Positions 421-7,357 are shown, numbered from the stretch's first letter. The stretch is DNA of 11,944 bases from Promethearchaeota archaeon (GCA_030603385.1 JAUVXW010000051.1:1-11944), one strand, 5' to 3'. Notes: generated by a model from the sequence alone, not told the origin. Numbers and translations are program-made.

Positions 421-627
421 ATGGAAATAGGAGCTAATGCTGTCATCAACTTTAGGTATAAAGAAGATGGGACTCACATATTTTGTAAGGGTTTGGGAGT
501 TATAGTTGAAGACCTTGAAACCACCTCATCTCCTAAGAAAGAAAATATTAATGTAATCCTCTGTGAGAGCTGTGGAAATGAAAAGCAGAGCTCTCATAAA
601 TTCTGCCCTTTTTGTGGATCAGAATAA
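421..627 (+). pseudogene. Probable 5'-truncated YbjQ/UPF0145-like (heavy-metal-binding fold) fragment with C-terminal zinc ribbon
   Basis: From 406 the frame reads IGQKAMEIGANAVINFRY...CKGLGVIVE, resembling the second half of YbjQ-like domains (A..lGANAVig.r...a.GtaV). It ends CESCG-x8-CPFCG. In-frame stops at 391-393 and 403-405 cut off the expected N-terminal half. Confidence 0.5.
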
Positions 628-682
628 CTTTTTTAAGTATAAATTGGTAATACTAACTTTACTTACTATCCCAAAGACTTAG

Positions 683-714
683 TGAAATGTAAGGTGTATG
701 GGTTGTGTTCCGGA
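683..714 (+). repeat. 3' motif copy 0 (tga..tgta.aggtg..gggttgtgttccgga)
   Basis: Shares TGTGTTCCGGA and the flanking G-rich sequence with the sequences directly after the stops of both paralogs (1550-1593, 2509-2552). Confidence 0.75.
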
Positions 715-716
715 TT

Positions 717-812
717 ATATTTTTTTTCTATTTTTTAGCTAACATTTTTAATTATGCATTCTATTTTCTAATTGATTGAGAGGCTTACTATGTGATTTAA
801 CAACTTATAGAG
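717..812 (+). promoter_or_regulatory. Duplicated upstream block copy 1 (putative archaeal promoter/5' UTR)
   Basis: Near-identical to 1663-1756 (ttctattttttagctaacatttttaatt...ttctattttct.attgattgagagg). It contains a TTTTAATT TATA-like box. The duplication is seen directly; promoter function is inferred. Confidence 0.65.
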
Positions 813-859
813 TATGAGCTTCGAGATGAAGACGAAATATGATTTACTGCTGATAGAAT

Positions 860-1552
860 ATGCCTGAAGAAGAGCGACAGATTTTCACCTGCCCAAAAAA
901 TTAGATGGATTTCCCGTTCGGTTTGGATTGTGGTGCGAAATCTGCCAGAGTGGAAAATATAAAGAAAAGTTCGATTGGTACGTTGGACTGTGATAATTGT
1001 GGTTTATCAAAGGCTGTGCTTGTTAATTCCGTATTAGCCCCTGTCTATGAGTTTGGCTCTTTTATCTATATCGATTCTGCTGTTCAAGAAATTATGCGAT
1101 TAGAGGGCTATTTCGGTTCGTTTGGCGGTGAGAATGAAGGTTATAAGATAAAATTAATTTTTTCTCTTTTACAAGATTTGTGTAAAGCTAAAGCTGCTGA
1201 AGCCTTAGAAGACGATGACGCCTTAGATCTCGCTGAAGTGTTTAAATGGGAAAAGAAGGGATTAGAATATAATCGTCAATTAGAGTGGTTAGAAGAATTT
1301 GTAAAGGAAAATCTGGGAGGTTCTTGGAATGGTATAAAATTTACTGGGCGTGATGGTGGGGGCAGTTCTTATCCCTATCCATATGTTTTTAAACCTCCAT
1401 CTCCACCTGACGATATTGGAGTAGTAATGAATGTGCAGGTTAAACGAGCTTTTAAGGAAGAGACGAGCGATTCTCTAAAATTTTGCTTGTATTGTGGAAG
1501 CAAACTAAGGATAAGCGCAAAGTATTGTCGAGCTTGTGGTAAAAAGTTTTGA
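860..1552 (+). CDS. Elf1-like zinc-ribbon protein with C-terminal extension, paralog 1; predicted spliced CDS join(860..898,929..1552), 220 aa
   Basis: Spliced N-terminus MPEEERQIFTCPK|CGAKSARVENIKKSSIGTLDCDNCGLSKAVLVNSVLAPVYEFGSFI matches the Elf1 pattern F-x-CPxC...G-x-L-x-CxxCG...P(V/I)xxx(G/S)xFI. It is followed by a helical region, YPYPYVFKPPSPPDD and a terminal CLYCG-x9-CRACG ribbon. The ORF track gives only 905..1552. Confidence 0.8.
899..928 (+). other. Predicted 30-nt bulge-helix-bulge mRNA intron 1
   Basis: Central helix CCAA 893-896/TTGG 923-926; 3-nt bulges AAA 897-899 and ATT 927-929; outer exon-exon stem CAGATTTTCACC 878-889/GGTGCGAAATCTG 932-944; inner stem GATGG/CCGTT; in-frame TAG 902-904. 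Confidence 0.78.
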
Positions 1553-1593
1553 TCTTCGTATTAGTGGGAGTGTGTTCCGGAGTTTTTACTCCA
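1550..1593 (+). repeat. 3' motif copy 1, possible terminator hairpin followed by T-rich tract
   Basis: tgatcttcgtattagtgggagtgtgttccggagtttttactcca; GGAGT-TTTT-ACTCC can form a hairpin; T-rich sequence follows. Confidence 0.75.
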
Positions 1594-1662
1594 AAAATTT
1601 TTATTTTCTTTCTTTTTGTATTTATAGTATCTATAGAGTTTGTGTTTCGTTGTGTTTCTTTG

Positions 1663-1756
1663 ATATTTTTTCTATTTTTTAGCTAACATTTTTAATTTTG
1701 GTTTCTATTTTCTTATTGATTGAGAGGTTTGCTGTGTAATCGCACAATTTTAAGAG
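1663..1756 (+). promoter_or_regulatory. Duplicated upstream block copy 2 (putative promoter/5' UTR)
   Basis: Near-identical to 717-812. It runs into an SD-like GAGGTTG (1754-1760) 7 nt before ATG 1768. Confidence 0.65.
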
Positions 1757-1767
1757 GTTGATCTTTA

Positions 1768-2511
1768 ATGAGAAGAAGAAAAAGAGAGCATTTAATCGAC
1801 AGGACGGCTCGTTATCCTGTCCACCCGATAATAAATCGCGGTGAAAGAGTCGTAAAAGAAGTATCCAAGACTTTCACCTGCCCAAAAGACTAGATGGGTT
1901 TCCCGTTCAATTTGGATTGTGGTGAGAGATCGGAAGTAACAGAAAAAATTAGAATGAGTCTCTGTGGTACGGTGAAGTGTATTCATTGTTGGACAACATT
2001 GGGTGTTTTAATTAATGTCAAATTAGAACCTATTTATTCGATTGGAGATTTTATTTCGATAAGTCGTGTTGGTCAGGAATTTCAGAGATTGGAGAGTCAC
2101 ATTGAGCAAATTATTAAACTTGAGAAAAAAAGTGCGATGCAGGAAGTGATGTCGTTTTCTCTTATCTTTGAAGAGTTTTGTAGAGCTAAAGTTGACGAAG
2201 CCAGAGAAATCGGAGCTACTGTCAATAGTGATGTAGTAAAAAAGTGGAGTTTTAAAGCAGAAGCGTGTTCTCGCCAAATCAGTAAGTTTTTTATTGAAAG
2301 CAGCCAGTGGAAAAGGGATGGTAATTTTTACCCCTATCCGTATGTTTTTAAACCTCCTGAACCTCCTGGTGATATAGGTGTTGCAACAAATGTGGAGCAA
2401 ACCAGACCCGTAGAGGAGGAAGCACCTGAAGTAGAGTTATTTTGTAGGTATTGTGGGAGCGTGCTTGCGATGGACGAGAGTTATTGTAGTGTCTGTGGGA
2501 AAAACTCCTGA
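1768..2511 (+). CDS. Elf1-like zinc-ribbon protein with C-terminal extension, paralog 2; predicted spliced CDS join(1768..1887,1918..2511), 237 aa
   Basis: Exon 1 MRRRKREHLIDRTARYPVHPIINRGERVVKEVSKTFTCPK is in frame with exon 2 CGERSEVTEKIRMSLCGTVKCIHCW...LEPIYSIGDFI. The basic MRRRKR start is typical of Elf1. It has YPYPYVFKPPEPPGD and a terminal CRYCG-x9-CSVCG as in paralog 1. The ORF track gives only 1894..2511. Confidence 0.82.
1888..1917 (+). other. Predicted 30-nt bulge-helix-bulge mRNA intron 2
   Basis: Central helix CCAA 1882-1885/TTGG 1912-1915; bulges AAG 1886-1888 and ATT 1916-1918; outer stem CTTTCACC 1871-1878/GGTGAGAG 1921-1928; inner stem GATGGG/CCCGTT; in-frame TAG 1891-1893. 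Confidence 0.78.
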
Positions 2512-2552
2512 TCATTGTAGAGGTGGGGTTGTGTTCCGGAGTTTTTACACCA
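2509..2552 (+). repeat. 3' motif copy 2, followed by T-rich tract (likely terminator region between convergent genes)
   Basis: tgatcattgtagaggtggggttgtgttccggagtttttacacca aligns with 1550-1593 and 683-714. Confidence 0.75.
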
Positions 2553-2603
2553 TTTTTTCTATTTATTCATTTATTTTTTGAAATTTAATGATTTAGATTT
2601 GAA

Positions 2604-4589
2604 TTAAGTTGATTTTGGAATTAAAATATGATCTTTTAAGAGATTTAGTATTTCAGGTGATATATCTTCAATATAATCAATTATGTCCTTATTCTCAAAA
2701 TTAAGATTAAATTTTTTTCTAATTTCTGATAAAACTTTTTTAGCCTCAATTTTAAATATTCCAATGTCTTCCCAATTTTCCAAAAAATCGTCAACCCAAT
2801 GATTTGAATCACTTTTTACTATTTTAGATAGATGAGTCAGTGCTCTTTTAGAAAAGAGTGTTTCATGAATTTGATTATAAATTTCAACGATATTAGTTGA
2901 TGGGGGGAATTTAGATATTTCTGTTCTTGGACTCAGTGTTTCTCTTAACCTATTTTCAACATAATTTAATAAAAGTTTTGAAAATTGATTATTTATTTGA
3001 TTATGGAATATTTCAGTTAATTTTTCCTTAACATCCTCAAATGATTTTGCTTCTACTCTCTCGAAAACTAATTTTGCTATAGCATCAAGATCAAGAAGGT
3101 AACTCTCGATTTGTCTTTTTTTCCATACATGGACATGAAAAACGTCAAAATTTTTAATTCTTTCTATCTCTTCAGGTGAATCTTCATCTTTGTCTCTGAT
3201 ATATATTATTTTTTTATCCTTTAAGAAATTAGTAAAAAAATCTTTAAATTTATTTAGATCTGTAGAATACCTTTTTTCAATAGGGAAAAATTCATATTTT
3301 AAGAAATCTTGTTTTATTTCATTATCTTTGACATATTTATCAATAAATTTCCTCAATAATACTTCATCTGTCGGGCCCTCAACAAAAATTAACTCTTCTG
3401 CACCTCTGAGCATCTCTCTTTTAAAAATTGAAGGAATTATTCCCATTTGATCTAATTGGTCATATAAATCTAGATCTTCTTCAATTAGTTGATGGGTTGA
3501 ATAACCATCTCTTAGATGAAGCGAGATTATGTTATCTAAAGGTAAATTATCAATAATATTAGGTAAATGAGTAGTGAATATGATTTGCTTCGATTCAGAA
3601 AGAACTTTTAAATATTCAACGAACTGATTTGCTAAGCTAGCGTGAAGATGCGCATCAGGTTCATCGATAAGGACAGTATTAACATCCTCATATCCTATAA
3701 TTGAAAAAATTTGAGTAAAAATTTGTGTTCCACCTCCATAAAGTGTAATATCTCGGTTGAACGAATCAAGAATCAATTTAAAATTACCCATAGTATGATC
3801 TAAATCAATTTTGACATTTTCAATCATTCCAAAATTCTCTTCCATCTTCGACTGAAACTGCTCAAAGGCTCGAGGATTCGTTCTCTTTAAATGAAAAAGT
3901 TGTGCTCGAATGTATTTATTTCTAAATTCCGTTCTAAGTTTCCGTTGTAGTTCGCTGTAAGACATATATTTCTCATTTTTTTGAAATTCGCTTAGATAAG
4001 GGTAAATTATTAGAGGTTTAAATGGAAAACTAGCAGGACTATTATGATAATATAATAAAATCTGAGAAAAATTGACATTCAGCTTACTTTTTGTTGAAAT
4101 TACTCCATCTTCAGTTATAAGTTGCTTAATATCATTTATTGCTTTATAAAACATTGTTTCATTGAAGTTCATACCTCCTCTCTTAATAACTCTTGTCGTT
4201 TCGCTAACAACTTCGATGTCAAGCTGAAATTTAAATACAATATCATTTTCTACAAGAAAAGAAGTTATAATTTCCCATTCATCATTATTAAAACGTCTCC
4301 TTTGCTCTACATCAATTTTTCTTAAATCTTTTAGGGTTAAAATCTCCACTTTTGTCAAACTAACCTCGAGCTCGATTCTAGTAGTAAACGCCGGTTCTTT
4401 AAATTTAGTTGGAAAATCATTTTGAACATCACCGCCAAAATTCATACCAAATATTGCTGCAATTGCCTGAATTATTGATGTTTTACCAGCATTATTTTCC
4501 CCTATAAGAGCATTAATCCCATCTTTAAATTCGATAGTTTGATCTTTAAAATGTTTAAAATTAGTTAATTTAAGCCGTAAAATTTTCAT
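2604..4589 (-). CDS. OLD-family ATP-dependent nuclease (ABC/SMC-type ATPase + TOPRIM)
   Basis: N-terminal LKLTNFKHF, Walker A GENNAGKTS, degenerate signature YGGGTQ, Walker B/D-loop VLIDEPDAHLH, H-switch IFTTH, TOPRIM IFVEGPTDE and RDKD, and RQIESYLL. Confidence 0.9.
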   Translation of the reverse strand: MKILRLKLTNFKHFKDQTIEFKDGINALIGENNAGKTSIIQAIAAIFGMNFGGDVQNDFPTKFKEPAFTTRIELEVSLTKVEILTLKDLRKIDVEQRRRFNNDEWEIITSFLVENDIVFKFQLDIEVVSETTRVIKRGGMNFNETMFYKAINDIKQLITEDGVISTKSKLNVNFSQILLYYHNSPASFPFKPLIIYPYLSEFQKNEKYMSYSELQRKLRTEFRNKYIRAQLFHLKRTNPRAFEQFQSKMEENFGMIENVKIDLDHTMGNFKLILDSFNRDITLYGGGTQIFTQIFSIIGYEDVNTVLIDEPDAHLHASLANQFVEYLKVLSESKQIIFTTHLPNIIDNLPLDNIISLHLRDGYSTHQLIEEDLDLYDQLDQMGIIPSIFKREMLRGAEELIFVEGPTDEVLLRKFIDKYVKDNEIKQDFLKYEFFPIEKRYSTDLNKFKDFFTNFLKDKKIIYIRDKDEDSPEEIERIKNFDVFHVHVWKKRQIESYLLDLDAIAKLVFERVEAKSFEDVKEKLTEIFHNQINNQFSKLLLNYVENRLRETLSPRTEISKFPPSTNIVEIYNQIHETLFSKRALTHLSKIVKSDSNHWVDDFLENWEDIGIFKIEAKKVLSEIRKKFNLNFENKDIIDYIEDISPEILNLLKDHILIPKST

Positions 4590-4850: not shown

Positions 4851-6600
4851 TTGGTCGAGTATCAGATGCTCATTATAGAAGAATTTCGAAAAATTATTTC
4901 GAATGAATTAGGAAATACTTGGGATATAATTCAGAGAGAAATAAAAGAATATTTTAATATAATTGATTTTGCCAACATAAATTATAGGAAAAACTATAGA
5001 AAAATAATCCAACCGCAAGAAGAGATTCTAGATGATCTCCTTAATATTCCAGAAATTTATCCCTTGTTATATGAGATTAAAGAAAGCAATTTTAATAATT
5101 TTGATAGTGATTCAATTACCAAGAATTATAATCATTATGAACACGGTTATTATTTAAGAGATATAATCCTTCCTCAGTTAGATCCGATTGTAAAAAGAAT
5201 AGAAAGTTTTCGAATTGAGAATTTTAATAAATTAGCAGATACTCAGAAAGAAATTCAAATCATCAAGAAATTTATTGATCATAATTTTCAAGATTATGGA
5301 TTAATACATTATGATTCTTATATCAATGTAATAAACGGGGTTGCTTACCATGAGGATTTTTATATCATTTTACCAAACCTTCTCAGATGTGTTTTTGAGA
5401 ATCTGCTTTATGATATTTTTCAAACAGCTCTGGATAAAAAGCACACTGATTTTATCTTTTTGAAGAGTCAGGCAAGAGCAAGAGATTTTTCTCAATTAAT
5501 TGCGTTATTAAATATTCTTAAAGATAAGGGATTCAAACCATATCACAAAGATTCTATTAATCAGAATGTAATTGAGGTATTAAGAGAAATTCAGAAGACC
5601 GGGAATTTATCAGTACATCAAATTCTAAGGCAGATCGACAGAAATTTTGCTGATAATATGAAAGAAAAGGTCAATAGAGTATTATTAGTTTTATTGGTTT
5701 TTTTCACAAAAATTCAAAATAAAAATTTGGTAATAATTGATGAAATTTTAATTGACAAAATTTATAAAACTCTTGGACTTACAGAAACGAAGAAACATAG
5801 AAAATTAATAGATGAGAAGGAGCAGGCATCAAGAATTTCAGCATGGAAGGTTATAATACAAGAGGATAACATTAAAATCGATGAAAAAGCAGTAATTCAA
5901 TCAATTCTACCAGATATTGTTGATGGGAAAATTATAAAAATAAATTGTGGAATTGATGATGAAAAATGGGAAAAACCTAAAAAATTATTAGAATCTGTAA
6001 TAGATGATGTGTTTAATGTGGAAGGCTTTTACAATTACAAATTTGCAGTATTTTCTCTAGCAAGAATTTCATATTCAATCTATTTAGGCTTTCTTCTTAC
6101 AGATCAGGTTAAGATAAGGTATTCCCAATACAATCGGGACTTACAAACTTGGAAATGGGTTAAAGATATACGTGGTTTTGGGTATTCTAGTTTAGACATC
6201 ATAGGATTAGTTAAGAGGAGAAAAAAAAAAAATCACCGAAATTGTAATCAAAATATCTATTTCAGCAAGAATTTTAGATGATGATATCAAAGAATTAGGG
6301 TTAGATCTTAATAATAGAGTTGAACTCAGCGTGATTAAACCTTCAGAAGATTGGCTTATTTCAGAGCATCAGATAGTTAGTGTTGGTCAACTTTTTAGGG
6401 GTATTTTAGCAAATCTAAGGGAAAAACTTCCCAATTTAAATAAAATTCATTTATTTTATGCTGGTCCTACGGCAGGCGCAATTGCTATAGGTCGACAAAT
6501 TAATCCAAGAATGACACCTTTGATTCAACTCTATGAATATAATAGAGCGGATTCGCCCAGATACAAAAAAAGTATTAAATTGGAGGATGATCTCTATTAG
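4851..6600 (+). CDS. CBASS effector: N-terminal HEPN/DUF4145-like domain fused to SAVED; frameshifted at A12 (6221-6232), about 582 aa if one A is removed
   Basis: SAVED motifs span both track ORFs: FAVFSLARISYSIYLGFLL..YSQYNRDLQTWKW (first frame), then ITEIVIKISISARI (open from 6211 in the +1 frame) and IHLFYAGPTAGAIAIGRQIN..IQLYEY. It lies directly upstream of, and overlaps, a CD-NTase. Start uncertain (TTG 4851 or ATG 4866). Confidence 0.85.
6221..6232 (+). repeat. A12 homopolymer at the frameshift point
   Basis: 12 consecutive A; 11 A would give ...LVKRRKKKITEIVIKISIS... in one frame. Confidence 0.9.
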
Positions 6601-7357
6601 TAATGAAAATTATTTAAGAGAACTTCTTGCTACCCAAAATCTAACGAAAAATCAAATTGAAAATTTAAAAAATCAGCGGGATGCAATCGTTGAAGATGTG
6701 GTTAATGAAATTGGGGGGAATCCAACCTTATTTAACGCTGGATCTTATGCTAAGGGTACTATGATTCAAGTTAGCTACGATTTGGATATTGTATTATATT
6801 GGGCAAATAATTTTCGGTATAGTCCTCGTAACCTTTATAATGAAATAGGAAGTGTTCTTCAAAGTAAAGGTAGAAATCCAAAATCTAAAAAAGTAGGATG
6901 GGAAATACCATTTCAAGGAGATTTTCACATAGATGTTATTCCTGGAAAGAAAATCCTAAATAAGCCAAACTATGCATATTTATATAATACTAATACTAAT
7001 AACCGTTTTCAATCAAGTGTCAAAAAACATGTTTCTTTTGTTAAAAAAGCAAATCGCCAGAGTGTAATAAAACTAATGAAATTATGGAAGAAAAGAAAAA
7101 GTGTTCCAATTAAAACTTTTATACTGGAATATATGATTATTGAGGGTTGTAAAAGAGTAAGCCGAAATACTCTGGAACCTCAAATAGGTGCTGCTTTTGA
7201 ATATATCGAAGAAAATATTACTACTAAGAGAATATTAGATCCAGCAAATTCACAAAACATAATTTCAGATGATATTACACAAGAAGAAAAGAATCGAATT
7301 AGAAGGCTCGCAATTCAAGCATTAGATGCTGATAGTTGGAGTAAAGTATTTTTTTAA
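6587..7357 (+). CDS. CBASS cyclic-oligonucleotide synthase (CD-NTase/SMODS, Pol-beta nucleotidyltransferase), about 256 aa
   Basis: GSYAKGT-x6-DLD catalytic motif, third Asp in IDVIPG, IKLMKLWK helix and C-terminal ILDPANSQNII. ATG 6587, overlapping the end of the SAVED gene, is preferred over the track start 6533, although the start is uncertain. Confidence 0.9.
   Translation: MISISNENYLRELLATQNLTKNQIENLKNQRDAIVEDVVNEIGGNPTLFNAGSYAKGTMIQVSYDLDIVLYWANNFRYSPRNLYNEIGSVLQSKGRNPKSKKVGWEIPFQGDFHIDVIPGKKILNKPNYAYLYNTNTNNRFQSSVKKHVSFVKKANRQSVIKLMKLWKKRKSVPIKTFILEYMIIEGCKRVSRNTLEPQIGAAFEYIEENITTKRILDPANSQNIISDDITQEEKNRIRRLAIQALDADSWSKVFF

What the first reader, a model, noticed from the sequence alone, without database searches (positions are those of the whole stretch)
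1864..1934. Second copy of the BHB intron at the identical position, with structure conserved despite sequence change
Seen: paralog 2 reads ...SKTFTCPK-D*MGFPFNLD-CGERS, with the same 30-nt insert length, same TAG position and same CCAA/TTGG helix and ATT bulge. Codons around the junction (ttc acc tgc cca aaa; ttg gat tgt ggt) are identical between paralogs whose remaining coding sequence is strongly diverged. The outer stem differs in sequence yet still pairs (CAGATTTTCACC/GGTGCGAAATCTG versus CTTTCACC/GGTGAGAG, extendable by GA/TC and TCC/GGA), and the inner stem gains a G-C pair. Inference: selection acts on RNA structure, which argues against a dead nonsense mutation or a sequencing error.
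Basis: partly seen in the sequence, partly recalled or inferred. Interest (0 to 1): 0.9.

Follow-up and report, generated by a model that had tools for sequence, protein, structure and literature searches.

The report
tRNA-type mini-intron in Elf1-like paralogue
A 30-base insert shaped like a tRNA intron splits the zinc-finger codons of a second Elf1-like gene in this Asgard (Loki-type) archaeon; comparison with relatives indicates the tRNA-splicing enzymes cut it out of the messenger RNA, which in the papers I could search is reported inside only one other archaeal coding sequence (cbf5).

Summary
Paralogue 2 (ATG 1768, stop 2509-2511) carries a 30-nt insert (1888-1917) with an in-frame TAG. 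It sits at the same place as the insert in paralogue 1 (899-928). Removing it joins TGC CCA AAA to TGT GGT and restores a CPKCG zinc knuckle.

The RNA can adopt a bulge-helix-bulge (BHB) shape: a 4-bp helix CCAA/UUGG, 3-nt bulges AAG and AUU on opposite strands, an exon-exon outer helix and an inner hairpin.

- A third copy (31 nt) splits the core elf1 gene on contig 39.
- In about 150 related Promethearchaeia (Lokiarchaeial) genomes, elf1 either has this insert (28, 30, 31 or 32 nt, mostly frame-breaking) or lacks it exactly (CPxCG).
- Helices covary: 90.8% of cells pair, against 44-50% for shifted controls.
- Four further environmental members of the paralogue family (five contigs) keep the insert, with TAA or TAG and a compensated central helix.
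- The genome encodes two EndA subunits and RtcB, but no PylS.

No RNA data were available, so splicing itself is inferred.

The scan had already noted this kind of intron on other DNA of this genome (elf1 on contig 39, proteasome, hdrA, histone). In the papers I could search, only the cbf5 mRNA of Crenarchaeota has such an intron inside its coding sequence.

The parts
1768..1887 (+). Exon 1 of Elf1-like paralogue 2 (40 codons, MRRRKREHLID...SKTFTCPK). It ends after the Lys codon of the CPK half-knuckle.
   Evidence: Translation. The same N-terminus is seen in environmental homologues L127/L128 and P0007/P0008.
1888..1917 (+). 30-nt BHB intron of paralogue 2 (GAC TAG ATG GGT TTC CCG TTC AAT TTG GAT), phase 0, with an in-frame TAG at 1891-1893.
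   Evidence: Covariance-model hit at 1865-1935, 69 bits, E 1e-14 to 5e-17. In related strains TAG is TAA (one search place 1893; L127).
1871..1881 (+). 5' strand of the exon-exon helix h: CUUUCACC (1871-1878), unpaired U1879, then G1880 and C1881.
   Evidence: It pairs with 1919-1928. Helix 1 is 95-98% paired across homologues.
1882..1885 (+). Central 4-bp helix H, 5' strand (CCAA).
   Evidence: It pairs with UUGG 1912-1915. Covariation to UCAA/UUGA in L130, and A-U/U-A/G-C at the third pair in the elf1 family.
1886..1888 (+). 5' bulge AAG. The predicted cut lies between 1887 and 1888.
   Evidence: Geometry rule: the cut falls two nt into each 3-nt bulge. The rule itself is from established knowledge of BHB cleavage. 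The cut gives the in-frame CPK|CG junction in all 38 distinct introns.
1889..1911 (+). Inner hairpin h' (core stem AUGGG/CCCGU, loop UUU). The pairs next to the 5' bulge are weak in this copy (A-U, C.A, U-A, A.C).
   Evidence: All 9 pairs of the inner helix show double changes in the 42-sequence alignment.
1912..1915 (+). Central helix H, 3' strand (UUGG).
1916..1918 (+). 3' bulge AUU. The predicted cut lies between 1917 and 1918.
   Evidence: Same geometry rule. Exon 2 then begins TGT GGT.
1919..1928 (+). 3' strand of the exon-exon helix h: G1919, U1920, then GGUGAGAG (1921-1928).
1918..2511 (+). Exon 2 of paralogue 2 (CGERSEV...CIHC..., helical region, YPYPYVFKPPEPPGDIGV motif, C-terminal zinc ribbon; stop 2509-2511). 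The spliced product is 237 aa.
   Evidence: the spliced N-terminus matches PF05129 at E 6.5e-6.
860..898 (+). Exon 1 of paralogue 1 (MPEEERQIFTCPK).
899..928 (+). 30-nt BHB intron of paralogue 1 (H CCAA 893-896 / UUGG 923-926; bulges AAA 897-899 and AUU 927-929).
   Evidence: Model hit at 876-946, 65.6 bits.
929..1552 (+). Exon 2 of paralogue 1. The spliced product is 220 aa.
   Evidence: the spliced N-terminus scores 36.5 bits against PF05129, above the 29.8-bit cut-off.

Best explanation
The 30 nt at 1888-1917 are an archaeal bulge-helix-bulge (tRNA-type) intron inside the coding sequence of an Elf1-like zinc-ribbon gene.

Proposed steps (all inferred):
1. The pre-mRNA folds so that exon 1 (CUUUCACC-U-GC) pairs with exon 2 (GU-GGUGAGAG). 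This sets up a 4-bp helix CCAA/UUGG flanked by the 3-nt bulges AAG and AUU on opposite strands, plus an inner hairpin.
2. The heterotetrameric splicing endonuclease (EndA alpha plus beta) cuts two nucleotides into each bulge.
3. RtcB joins the exons and probably circularises the intron.
4. The spliced mRNA reads TGC CCA AAA TGT GGT and encodes a 237-aa protein with an intact CPKCG...CIHC zinc ribbon.

Unspliced RNA would stop at the TAG two codons into the intron.

The intron is homologous to the one in paralogue 1 and to the intron in the core elf1 gene of several Promethearchaeia genera. It was therefore most likely inherited through gene duplication and kept under selection for its fold.

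Shown here: the anatomy, the covariation, the exact presence/absence alleles and the presence of the enzymes. Inferred: cleavage, ligation and the protein product.
For: 1. Excision restores CPKCG and the Elf1 match. Exon 2 of paralogue 2 alone gives no PF05129 hit at E <= 0.01; spliced it scores 26.6 bits. Paralogue 1 goes from 19.3 to 36.5 bits, above the 29.8-bit cut-off.
2. A third copy in the core elf1 gene on contig 39 is 31 nt, with exons in different frames. The same cut rule gives CPDCG.
3. In 29 same-genus loci, 21 elf1 genes lack the insert exactly (FTCP[D/E]CGEK) and 8 carry it. The model gives 72-nt hits (insert present) or 41-nt hits (insert absent) in 54 genus and 151 order genomes.
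4. Lengths among 38 distinct introns are 28, 30, 31 and 32 nt, always between CPx and CG.
5. Covariation in 42 sequences: 90.8% of cells paired against 44-50% for slid partners; 12 of 23 pairs have double changes, including 2 of 4 in the central helix; no shuffle reached the observed values.
6. The exon-exon helix is better kept where the intron is present: 9.69 of 10 pairs, against 8.58 in intron-less alleles of the same family and 6.0 in the sister family. Thr codon ACC occurs in 24/35 against 7/33.
7. Environmental members of the paralogue family (L126-L130) all keep a 30-nt insert here. Stops are TAA or TAG, and one has the compensated helix UCAA/UUGA.
8. The motif is 78-86% identical between members whose proteins are 37-52% identical.
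9. The machinery is present. There are two EndA paralogues. One is closest to the crenarchaeal-type EndA chains 3p1z_B/3ajv_B, which I recall as the Aeropyrum pernix catalytic subunit. RtcB scores 558 bits. Asgard EndA is reported as the broad-specificity (alpha-beta)2 type (PMC5829648).
10. 36 of 38 introns place a stop in the exon-1 frame within their first two codons, against 10 and 1 within the first three codons of the other two frames.
Against: - No RNA evidence exists: no RNA run holds the locus, and the four runs laid were DNA-like contigs without a spliced joint.
- The strict BHB conformer is not the minimum-free-energy fold. It is 4.6-9 kcal/mol above it in the six family members, and some MFE folds replace the central helix by an internal loop.
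- In paralogue 2 the inner helix next to the 5' bulge is weak (two mismatches in the first four pairs), so the 5' site is a relaxed rather than strict bulge.
- In many elf1 orthologues the 4-bp helix has one non-standard pair (pair 19-53 unpaired in 12 of 40).
- Within the paralogue family alone, covariation is not significant against shuffles.
- The sequences are related, so counts and the p-value overstate independence.
Confidence: 0.85

Rival explanations
1. Translational recoding. The ribosome either reads TAG as an amino acid (pyrrolysine or readthrough), leaving a 10-residue insertion in the knuckle, or hops over the insert as in phage T4 gene 60.
For: - The insert is a multiple of 3 in both window copies, and TAG is the pyrrolysine codon.
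- In paralogue 2 the codon before the stop (GAC) and the codon before exon 2 (GAU) are both Asp. In the genus-type elf1 intron GAA-UGA...GAA-UGC looks like a matched take-off and landing pair.
Against: - No PylS reaches the cut-off (best 29 bits against 178).
- The stop is TAA in orthologous copies and strains (one search place 1893), and UGA or UAA in the elf1 introns.
- 20 of 38 distinct introns are not multiples of 3.
- Take-off and landing codons do not match in paralogue 1 (AAU/GAU) or in the g18 and g20 types (CAA/GAU, AAU/GAU).
- Hopping does not predict covariation of an exon-exon helix or a 4-bp helix between two 3-nt bulges.
Confidence: 0.04
2. Two separate cistrons. A short leader peptide (41 aa) ends at TAG, and the main protein starts at the adjacent ATG 1894. 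The hairpin would act as a translational-coupling or regulatory element, and no RNA is removed.
For: - TAG is followed at once by an in-frame ATG in both window copies.
- Gene callers in public data call exactly such ORFs (P0004 and P0005 start MGFPFNLD).
Against: - The ATG is not conserved in the family: ATA in L126 and ACG in L129.
- The product would lack half of its zinc knuckle.
- Intron-less relatives are fused as CPxCG.
- In the 28, 31 and 32-nt relatives the downstream exon is in another frame, and its start would have to be found anew each time.
Confidence: 0.05
3. Decaying pseudogenes. A small insertion (for example a hairpin-forming mobile remnant) killed an Elf1-like gene before it duplicated, and the similarity of the two copies reflects recent gene conversion.
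For: - The two genes sit in a variable, defence-island-like contig (OLD-type ATPase, SAVED, SMODS).
- The upstream promoter-like block is also about 88% identical between the copies, so local homogenisation is plausible.
Against: - Exon 2 stays open for 197-207 codons in all six family members, from independent samples.
- The same insert sits in the only elf1 homologue found, with this query, in several genomes such as G027, G031, G001, G026 and G032.
- Structure-preserving changes accumulate.
Confidence: 0.03

Closest known systems
BHB intron in the cbf5 (pseudouridine synthase) pre-mRNA of Crenarchaeota (Watanabe et al. 2002; Yokobori et al. 2009, PMC2738675)
   Same: A short tRNA-type intron lies inside a protein-coding sequence. 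It is removed by the tRNA-splicing endonuclease and ligase. Its distribution is patchy, with exact gain/loss alleles among relatives.
   Different: - The gene is different (Elf1-like zinc ribbon) and the lineage is different (Asgard, Promethearchaeia).
- The intron is present in three paralogues of one genome at the same codon boundary, so it survived gene duplication.
- Splicing of cbf5 was shown by RT-PCR. Here it is only inferred.
BHB introns of archaeal pre-tRNAs, including the heavily interrupted tRNA genes of Asgard archaea (bioRxiv 10.64898/2026.10.13.758758; Marck and Grosjean 2003, from memory)
   Same: The hBHBh' geometry is the same: a 4-bp helix and two 3-nt bulges on opposite strands, each 3' of its helix strand. 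The size class is similar, and the same enzymes are presumed to act.
   Different: The host RNA is an mRNA. The outer helix is made of codons (Phe-Thr and Gly-Glu) instead of a tRNA stem, so it constrains synonymous sites.
BHB intron in the 5' UTR of Haloferax volcanii HVO_1309 mRNA (Schwarz et al. 2020, PMC7714728)
   Same: It is an EndA substrate in an mRNA.
   Different: That intron is in the untranslated leader. This one interrupts the reading frame and must be removed to make the protein.
HAC1/XBP1 unconventional cytoplasmic mRNA splicing in eukaryotes (IRE1 plus tRNA ligase/RtcB)
   Same: Splicing is non-spliceosomal, using an endonuclease plus a tRNA ligase. It acts on a small intron in a coding sequence and changes the protein made.
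   Different: The endonuclease is different (IRE1, not EndA/TSEN) and recognises stem-loops, not a BHB. HAC1/XBP1 splicing is regulated by stress. No regulation is shown here.
Elf1/ELOF1 transcription elongation factor (Pfam PF05129)
   Same: The spliced N-terminal domains have the four-Cys ribbon and match the family. The intron-less orthologue of the contig-39 gene scores 67.4 bits over the whole profile.
   Different: The window paralogues are 220 and 237 aa, with an added helical region, a YPYPYVFKPPxPP motif and a second zinc ribbon. Paralogue 1 lacks the basic N-terminal tail. Paralogue 2 scores below the Pfam cut-off.

Membership tests
Archaeal bulge-helix-bulge (BHB) intron | Two 3-nt bulges on opposite strands, separated by a 4-bp helix, each bulge 3' of its helix strand. 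| tested here: met
   Paralogue 2 has CCAA 1882-1885 / UUGG 1912-1915 with bulges AAG 1886-1888 and AUU 1916-1918. Paralogue 1 has the same geometry. Homologues keep the register, often with one non-standard pair in the 4-bp helix.
Archaeal bulge-helix-bulge (BHB) intron | Flanking helices h (exon-exon) and h' (intron-intron) that hold the motif. | tested here: met
   Helix h is 96.5% paired and h' 86.9% paired in 42 sequences, and all 9 h' pairs show double changes. In paralogue 2 the h' pairs next to the 5' bulge are weak, so that site is relaxed.
Archaeal bulge-helix-bulge (BHB) intron | Cutting at the bulges and joining the exons gives a functional, uninterrupted product. | tested here: met
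   In silico, the junction CPK|CG is in frame in all 38 distinct introns, whatever their length. Elf1 Pfam scores rise after removal. Intron-less orthologues have exactly this junction.
Archaeal bulge-helix-bulge (BHB) intron | The splicing endonuclease EndA and the RNA ligase RtcB are encoded by the organism. | tested here: met
   Two PF01974 genes (99 and 71 bits) and one RtcB gene (558 bits) are present. One EndA is closest to the crenarchaeal-type EndA chains 3p1z_B/3ajv_B. The other appears to lack the histidine at the corresponding place, by eye without an alignment.
Archaeal bulge-helix-bulge (BHB) intron | The intron is actually cleaved and the exons ligated in RNA. | not testable with these tools
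   No RNA run holds the locus. The contigs laid look like DNA and show no spliced joint.
Elf1 zinc ribbon (PF05129) | Match to the family profile above the curated cut-off (29.8 bits), with a four-Cys ribbon. | tested here: inconclusive
   Spliced paralogue 1 scores 36.5 bits (met). Spliced paralogue 2 scores 26.6 bits, E 6.5e-6 (below the cut-off). Both have CPKC...CxxC. The contig-39 orthologue family scores 67.4 bits.
Pyrrolysine (TAG) decoding | PylS/tRNA-Pyl are present and TAG is kept as TAG in homologues. | tested here: not met
   The best PylS_Cterm hit is 29 bits against a cut-off of 178. TAG is TAA in L127/L128 and in strain contigs. The ARAGORN 'tRNA-Pyl' call needed an 8-nt intron and stands alone.
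Programmed translational bypassing (T4 gene 60 type) | Matched take-off and landing codons flank the skipped stretch, with a stop after take-off. | tested here: not met
   The codons match only in some lineages (GAA...GAA in the genus type; GAC/GAU in paralogue 2). They do not match in paralogue 1 or in the g18 and g20 types.

The most novel reading that the evidence does not exclude
Splicing of these introns is conditional rather than constitutive. EndA/RtcB activity would then gate how much zinc-ribbon-complete Elf1-like protein is made, with ribosomes stopping at the early in-frame stop on unspliced RNA. That would be an archaeal counterpart of HAC1/XBP1-type unconventional mRNA splicing. 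It would sit within a genome-wide set of tRNA-type mRNA introns in Lokiarchaeial Asgard archaea that are old enough to have been inherited through gene duplication.
Probability: 0.15. Interest if true: 0.9.

Novelty: new member of a known kind. Interest (0 to 1): 0.75.

Why it matters
BHB introns are textbook features of archaeal tRNA and rRNA. In the papers I could search, only cbf5 of Crenarchaeota is reported to have one inside a coding sequence, and a Haloferax gene has one in its 5' UTR (PMC2738675; PMC7714728).

Here the same kind of intron sits in three paralogues of a eukaryote-like transcription factor in an Asgard archaeon. It has exact presence/absence alleles across several genera and visible constraint on the codons that form the exon-exon helix. 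This shows three things:
- Protein-mediated mRNA splicing is more than a single-gene oddity in the archaeal relatives of eukaryotes.
- Such introns can persist through gene duplication and strong protein divergence.
- Gene callers systematically mis-annotate these genes. Public ORFs start inside the intron, for example MGFPFNLD...

It also offers a compact, testable substrate (71 nt) for the broad-specificity Asgard endonuclease.

Tried and rejected
- RNA evidence: no RNA holder is listed for window 600-2700.
- The four runs laid (one study, kind unknown, Logan contigs) behave like DNA of related strains. They show no joint at either intron.
- An exact-pattern scan of metagenome contigs for the spliced junction (TTCACMTGCYCAAAATGTGGTG) found two unrelated genes that merely share FTCPKCG. 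No spliced or intron-less copy of the paralogue family was found.
- Rfam: no family matches 600-2700 at E <= 1.
- Tree of the Elf1 domains: it was left at the quick stage and is poorly resolved. The window paralogues sit on very long branches next to the g20-genus type (highest identity 55% and 50%). Neither their origin nor the number of intron gains and losses can be stated (16 changes on the tree, but the starred branches force only 1).
- Thermodynamic folding alone does not single out the BHB conformer.
- The 16S search in the genome found nothing. The organism was named from record titles of near-identical elf1 loci instead.
- The depth spike at 1523-1664 in the metagenome contigs is not explained by copies in this genome. 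The GTGTTCCGGA core occurs only three times, all in the window, plus one partial match.
- The idea that the TAG-ATG pair is a conserved reinitiation switch is not supported. The ATG is ATA or ACG in two family members.

Full report
**Observation**

The window is the whole 11,944-nt contig C2 of a 3.89-Mb, 30.8% G+C assembly. Two tandem genes read through an in-frame TAG at the same place.
- Paralogue 1 (ATG 860) gives ...QIFTCPKN*MDFPFGLDCGAKS.
- Paralogue 2 (ATG 1768) gives ...SKTFTCPKD*MGFPFNLDCGERS.
- The inserts are 899-928 and 1888-1917, each 30 nt and 25/30 identical to each other.
- The 64-nt region around them is 86% identical. Exon 2 is 57% identical in nucleotides and 40% in amino acids.

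**Anatomy of the copy in question**

- Exon-exon helix: CUUUCACC (1871-1878) pairs with GGUGAGAG (1921-1928). U1879 is unpaired. G1880 and C1881 pair with U1920 and G1919.
- Central helix: CCAA (1882-1885) pairs with UUGG (1912-1915).
- Bulges: the 5' bulge is AAG (1886-1888) and the 3' bulge is AUU (1916-1918). Each lies 3' of its strand of the central helix, as in tRNA BHB motifs.
- Inner hairpin: 1889-1911, with core stem AUGGG/CCCGU.
- Junction: cutting two nucleotides into each bulge removes 1888-1917 and joins TGC CCA AAA to TGT GGT. This gives the knuckle CPKCG, whose partner CIHC lies 17 residues on.

With the insert removed, the N-terminal domain matches Pfam Elf1 at 26.6 bits (E 6.5e-6), where exon 2 alone gave no hit. 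For paralogue 1 the score rises from 19.3 to 36.5 bits, above the 29.8-bit cut-off.

**A third copy and natural intron-less alleles**

tblastn found a third relative on contig 39. It has a typical Elf1 start, MGRRKRK...IFTCPD. It then runs into TGA TAA and resumes 31 nt later in another frame. The same cut rule gives CPDCG.

In same-genus genomes the orthologue is a 192-aa protein that matches Elf1 over the whole profile (67.4 bits). Of the 29 same-genus loci taken:
- 21 read FTCP[D/E]CGEK with nothing in between.
- 8 carry a 31-32-nt insert at exactly this point.

A covariance model built on 11 copies gives either 72-nt hits (insert present) or 41-nt hits (insert absent).
- There is about one hit per genome, and each locus examined is an elf1-type gene. 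This holds in 54 genomes of the genus and 151 of the order.
- The insert occurs in at least four genera of one family.
- It was not found in the other families searched. Their elf1 genes are uninterrupted: CPKCGHK, CPNCGHK, CPSCGKK.
- Among 38 distinct intron sequences the lengths are 30 (18), 31 (17), 32 (2) and 28 (1) nt. The insert always lies between the CPx codons and the CG codons.
- More than half therefore break the frame unless they are removed from the RNA.

**Structure is under selection**

On the 42-sequence model alignment:
- 90.8% of cells form standard pairs, against 44-50% when partners are slid by 1-3 columns.
- 12 of 23 pairs show changes on both sides, against 4-8 for slid partners.
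- No shuffle of 500 reached the observed values.
- All nine inner-helix pairs covary. Stems seen include GAUCG/CGAUC, GCUCG/CGAGC, AAUUG/CAAUU and GACUG/CAGU(U).
- Two of the four central-helix pairs covary (A-U, U-A, G-C; and G-C, A-U, C-G).

The exon-exon helix is made of codons, and it is better kept where the intron is present.
- It has 9.69 of 10 pairs with the intron.
- It has 8.58 of 10 in intron-less alleles of the same family.
- It has 6.0 of 10 in the sister family.
- The Thr codon ACC is used in 24/35 intron-bearing alleles against 7/33 intron-less ones. The sequences are kin, so that p-value overstates the case.

**The paralogue family itself**

A protein search with exon 2 of paralogue 1 found seven relatives of 198-206 aa in environmental assemblies. 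Five begin inside what is here the intron or at its end: MGFPFNLDCG, MDCG, MNCG, VECG. Their DNA (L126-L130) shows:
- the same 30-nt insert after CPK or CSK;
- stops TAA or TAG;
- ATG replaced by ATA or ACG in two of them;
- in L130, a doubly compensated central helix UCAA/UUGA.

The 58-nt core is 78-86% identical between members whose exon-2 proteins are 37-52% identical. The conservation therefore cannot be put down to gene conversion between the two tandem copies alone.

Within these six sequences 88% of cells pair, against 33-50% for slid partners. However, only three pairs show double changes, which is not significant against shuffles.

A strain variant at 1893 (G to A, so TAG becomes TAA) also appears in metagenome contigs.

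**Machinery and organism**

- The genome has two EndA-family genes. One is closest to the crenarchaeal-type EndA chains 3p1z_B/3ajv_B, which I recall as the Aeropyrum pernix catalytic subunit. The other is divergent and, by eye without an alignment, lacks the histidine at the corresponding place.
- It has one RtcB gene.
- Asgard archaea are reported to have the (alpha-beta)2 endonuclease with the loop that confers broad substrate range (PMC5829648).
- No PylS is present.
- Near-identical elf1 loci carry the titles Promethearchaeia or Promethearchaeota archaeon.

**Rivals**

- Readthrough or pyrrolysine fails on the TAA and TGA stops, the frame-breaking lengths and the missing PylS.
- Ribosome hopping fails because take-off and landing codons match only in some lineages.
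- A stop-start pair of cistrons fails because the ATG is not conserved, and because the protein would lack half its knuckle.
- Pseudogene decay fails because exon 2 stays open in all members. In several genomes the intron-bearing gene is also the only elf1 found with this query.

**Caveats**

- No RNA run holds the locus, so cleavage and ligation are inferred.
- The strict BHB conformer lies 4.6-9 kcal/mol above the minimum-free-energy fold.
- In paralogue 2 the inner helix beside the 5' bulge is weak, so this site is of the relaxed kind.
- Many orthologues have one non-standard pair in the 4-bp helix.
- The tree is too poorly resolved to count gains and losses or to place the paralogues. Their protein and intron sequences look closest to the 30-nt type of another genus.

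**Further inferences**

- 36 of 38 introns put a stop in the exon-1 frame within their first two codons. The other two frames have a stop within their first three codons in only 10 and 1 introns. This would end translation of unspliced RNA early.
- The genus-type intron is flanked by the direct repeat GAATG. This could allow exact loss at the DNA level and may explain the patchy distribution.

**Comparison with what is known**

The papers I could search report a BHB intron inside a coding sequence only for cbf5 of Crenarchaeota. They report one in a 5' UTR in Haloferax (PMC2738675; PMC7714728). Searches for Asgard, Elf1 or mRNA BHB introns found nothing further.

Earlier notes of this scan describe the same kind of intron elsewhere in this genome: elf1 on contig 39, proteasome alpha, RNase HII, hdrA, hdrB, a histone, rpoA1 and AMP phosphorylase. 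I re-derived the contig-39 case independently. I also saw that the proteasome alpha gene on contig 17 is indeed in three pieces in three frames.

**Verdict**

The finding is a real, well-supported new member of a known kind. Its specific value is that the intron is shared by diverged paralogues and by independent environmental relatives.

Noticed in passing
window 717-800 and 1666-1750: An upstream block (TTTTTTCTATTTTTTAGCTAACATTTTTAATT...TTCTATTTTCT.ATTGATTGAGAGG) is about 88% identical in front of both paralogues. It is probably a shared promoter or 5' leader. It is as conserved as the intron region, so some homogenisation between the tandem copies is possible.
   Followed up: partly
window 700-730, 1565-1600, 2524-2560: Each of the three tandem genes (421-627, 860-1552, 1768-2511) is followed by a hairpin with the conserved core GUGUUCCGGAGUUUUUA. 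Its stems differ in a compensated way (GGAGU/ACUCC against GGUG/CACC), and a T-rich run follows. The core occurs only here in the genome. Metagenome contig depth rises about 100-fold over 1523-1664. The cause is unexplained.
   Followed up: partly
window 1310-1552 and 2300-2511; proteins P0009-P0012: The C-terminal module (YPYPYVFKPPxPPxDIGV plus a CxxCG...CxxCG ribbon) recurs on environmental proteins whose N-termini are Roadblock/LC7, Arf/Ras-type small GTPase or receiver domains. It behaves as a portable module of unknown role.
   Followed up: no
proteins P0007, P0008 (environmental): Two relatives keep the exon-1 N-terminus of paralogue 2 (MRRRKREHLIDKTARYPV...). They go straight on to GVLVNF..., lacking the whole zinc ribbon and the intron.
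   Followed up: no
L009:1348-1923 and other intron-less orthologues; G000 contig 39 about 2045-2650: The core Elf1 of this family is 192 aa, far longer than typical Elf1. It has a helical middle part and an acidic tail ending DDIFDDPGFLEF.
   Followed up: no
elf1 loci of the genus, e.g. L022:1462-1533: The 31-nt genus-type intron is flanked by the 5-nt direct repeat GAATG (CCA GAATG A...C GAATG CGG). A deletion between the repeats would give exactly the intron-less allele. This is a possible DNA-level route for the repeated precise losses.
   Followed up: partly
G000 contig 17, about 41819-42434: The proteasome alpha-subunit gene is in three pieces in three frames (Pfam profile 1-61 and 96-189, with a middle piece between them). 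This is consistent with two further mini-introns, as earlier notes of this scan say.
   Followed up: partly
window 2604-4589 (-), 4851-6278 (+), 6533-7354 (+): An OLD/AAA_15-type ATPase, a SAVED-domain protein and a SMODS nucleotidyltransferase lie here. This is a CBASS-like defence neighbourhood next to the Elf1-like tandem genes.
   Followed up: no
whole genome G000: ARAGORN with intron search finds only 18 tRNA genes. Seven have introns, including a doubtful 'tRNA-Pyl' with an 8-nt intron. Many tRNA genes are probably hidden by introns, as reported for Asgard archaea.
   Followed up: no
G004 contigs C94 and C171: One related genome holds both an intron-bearing and an intron-less elf1 copy. 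This may be strain mixture (9% contamination) or a real polymorphism.
   Followed up: no
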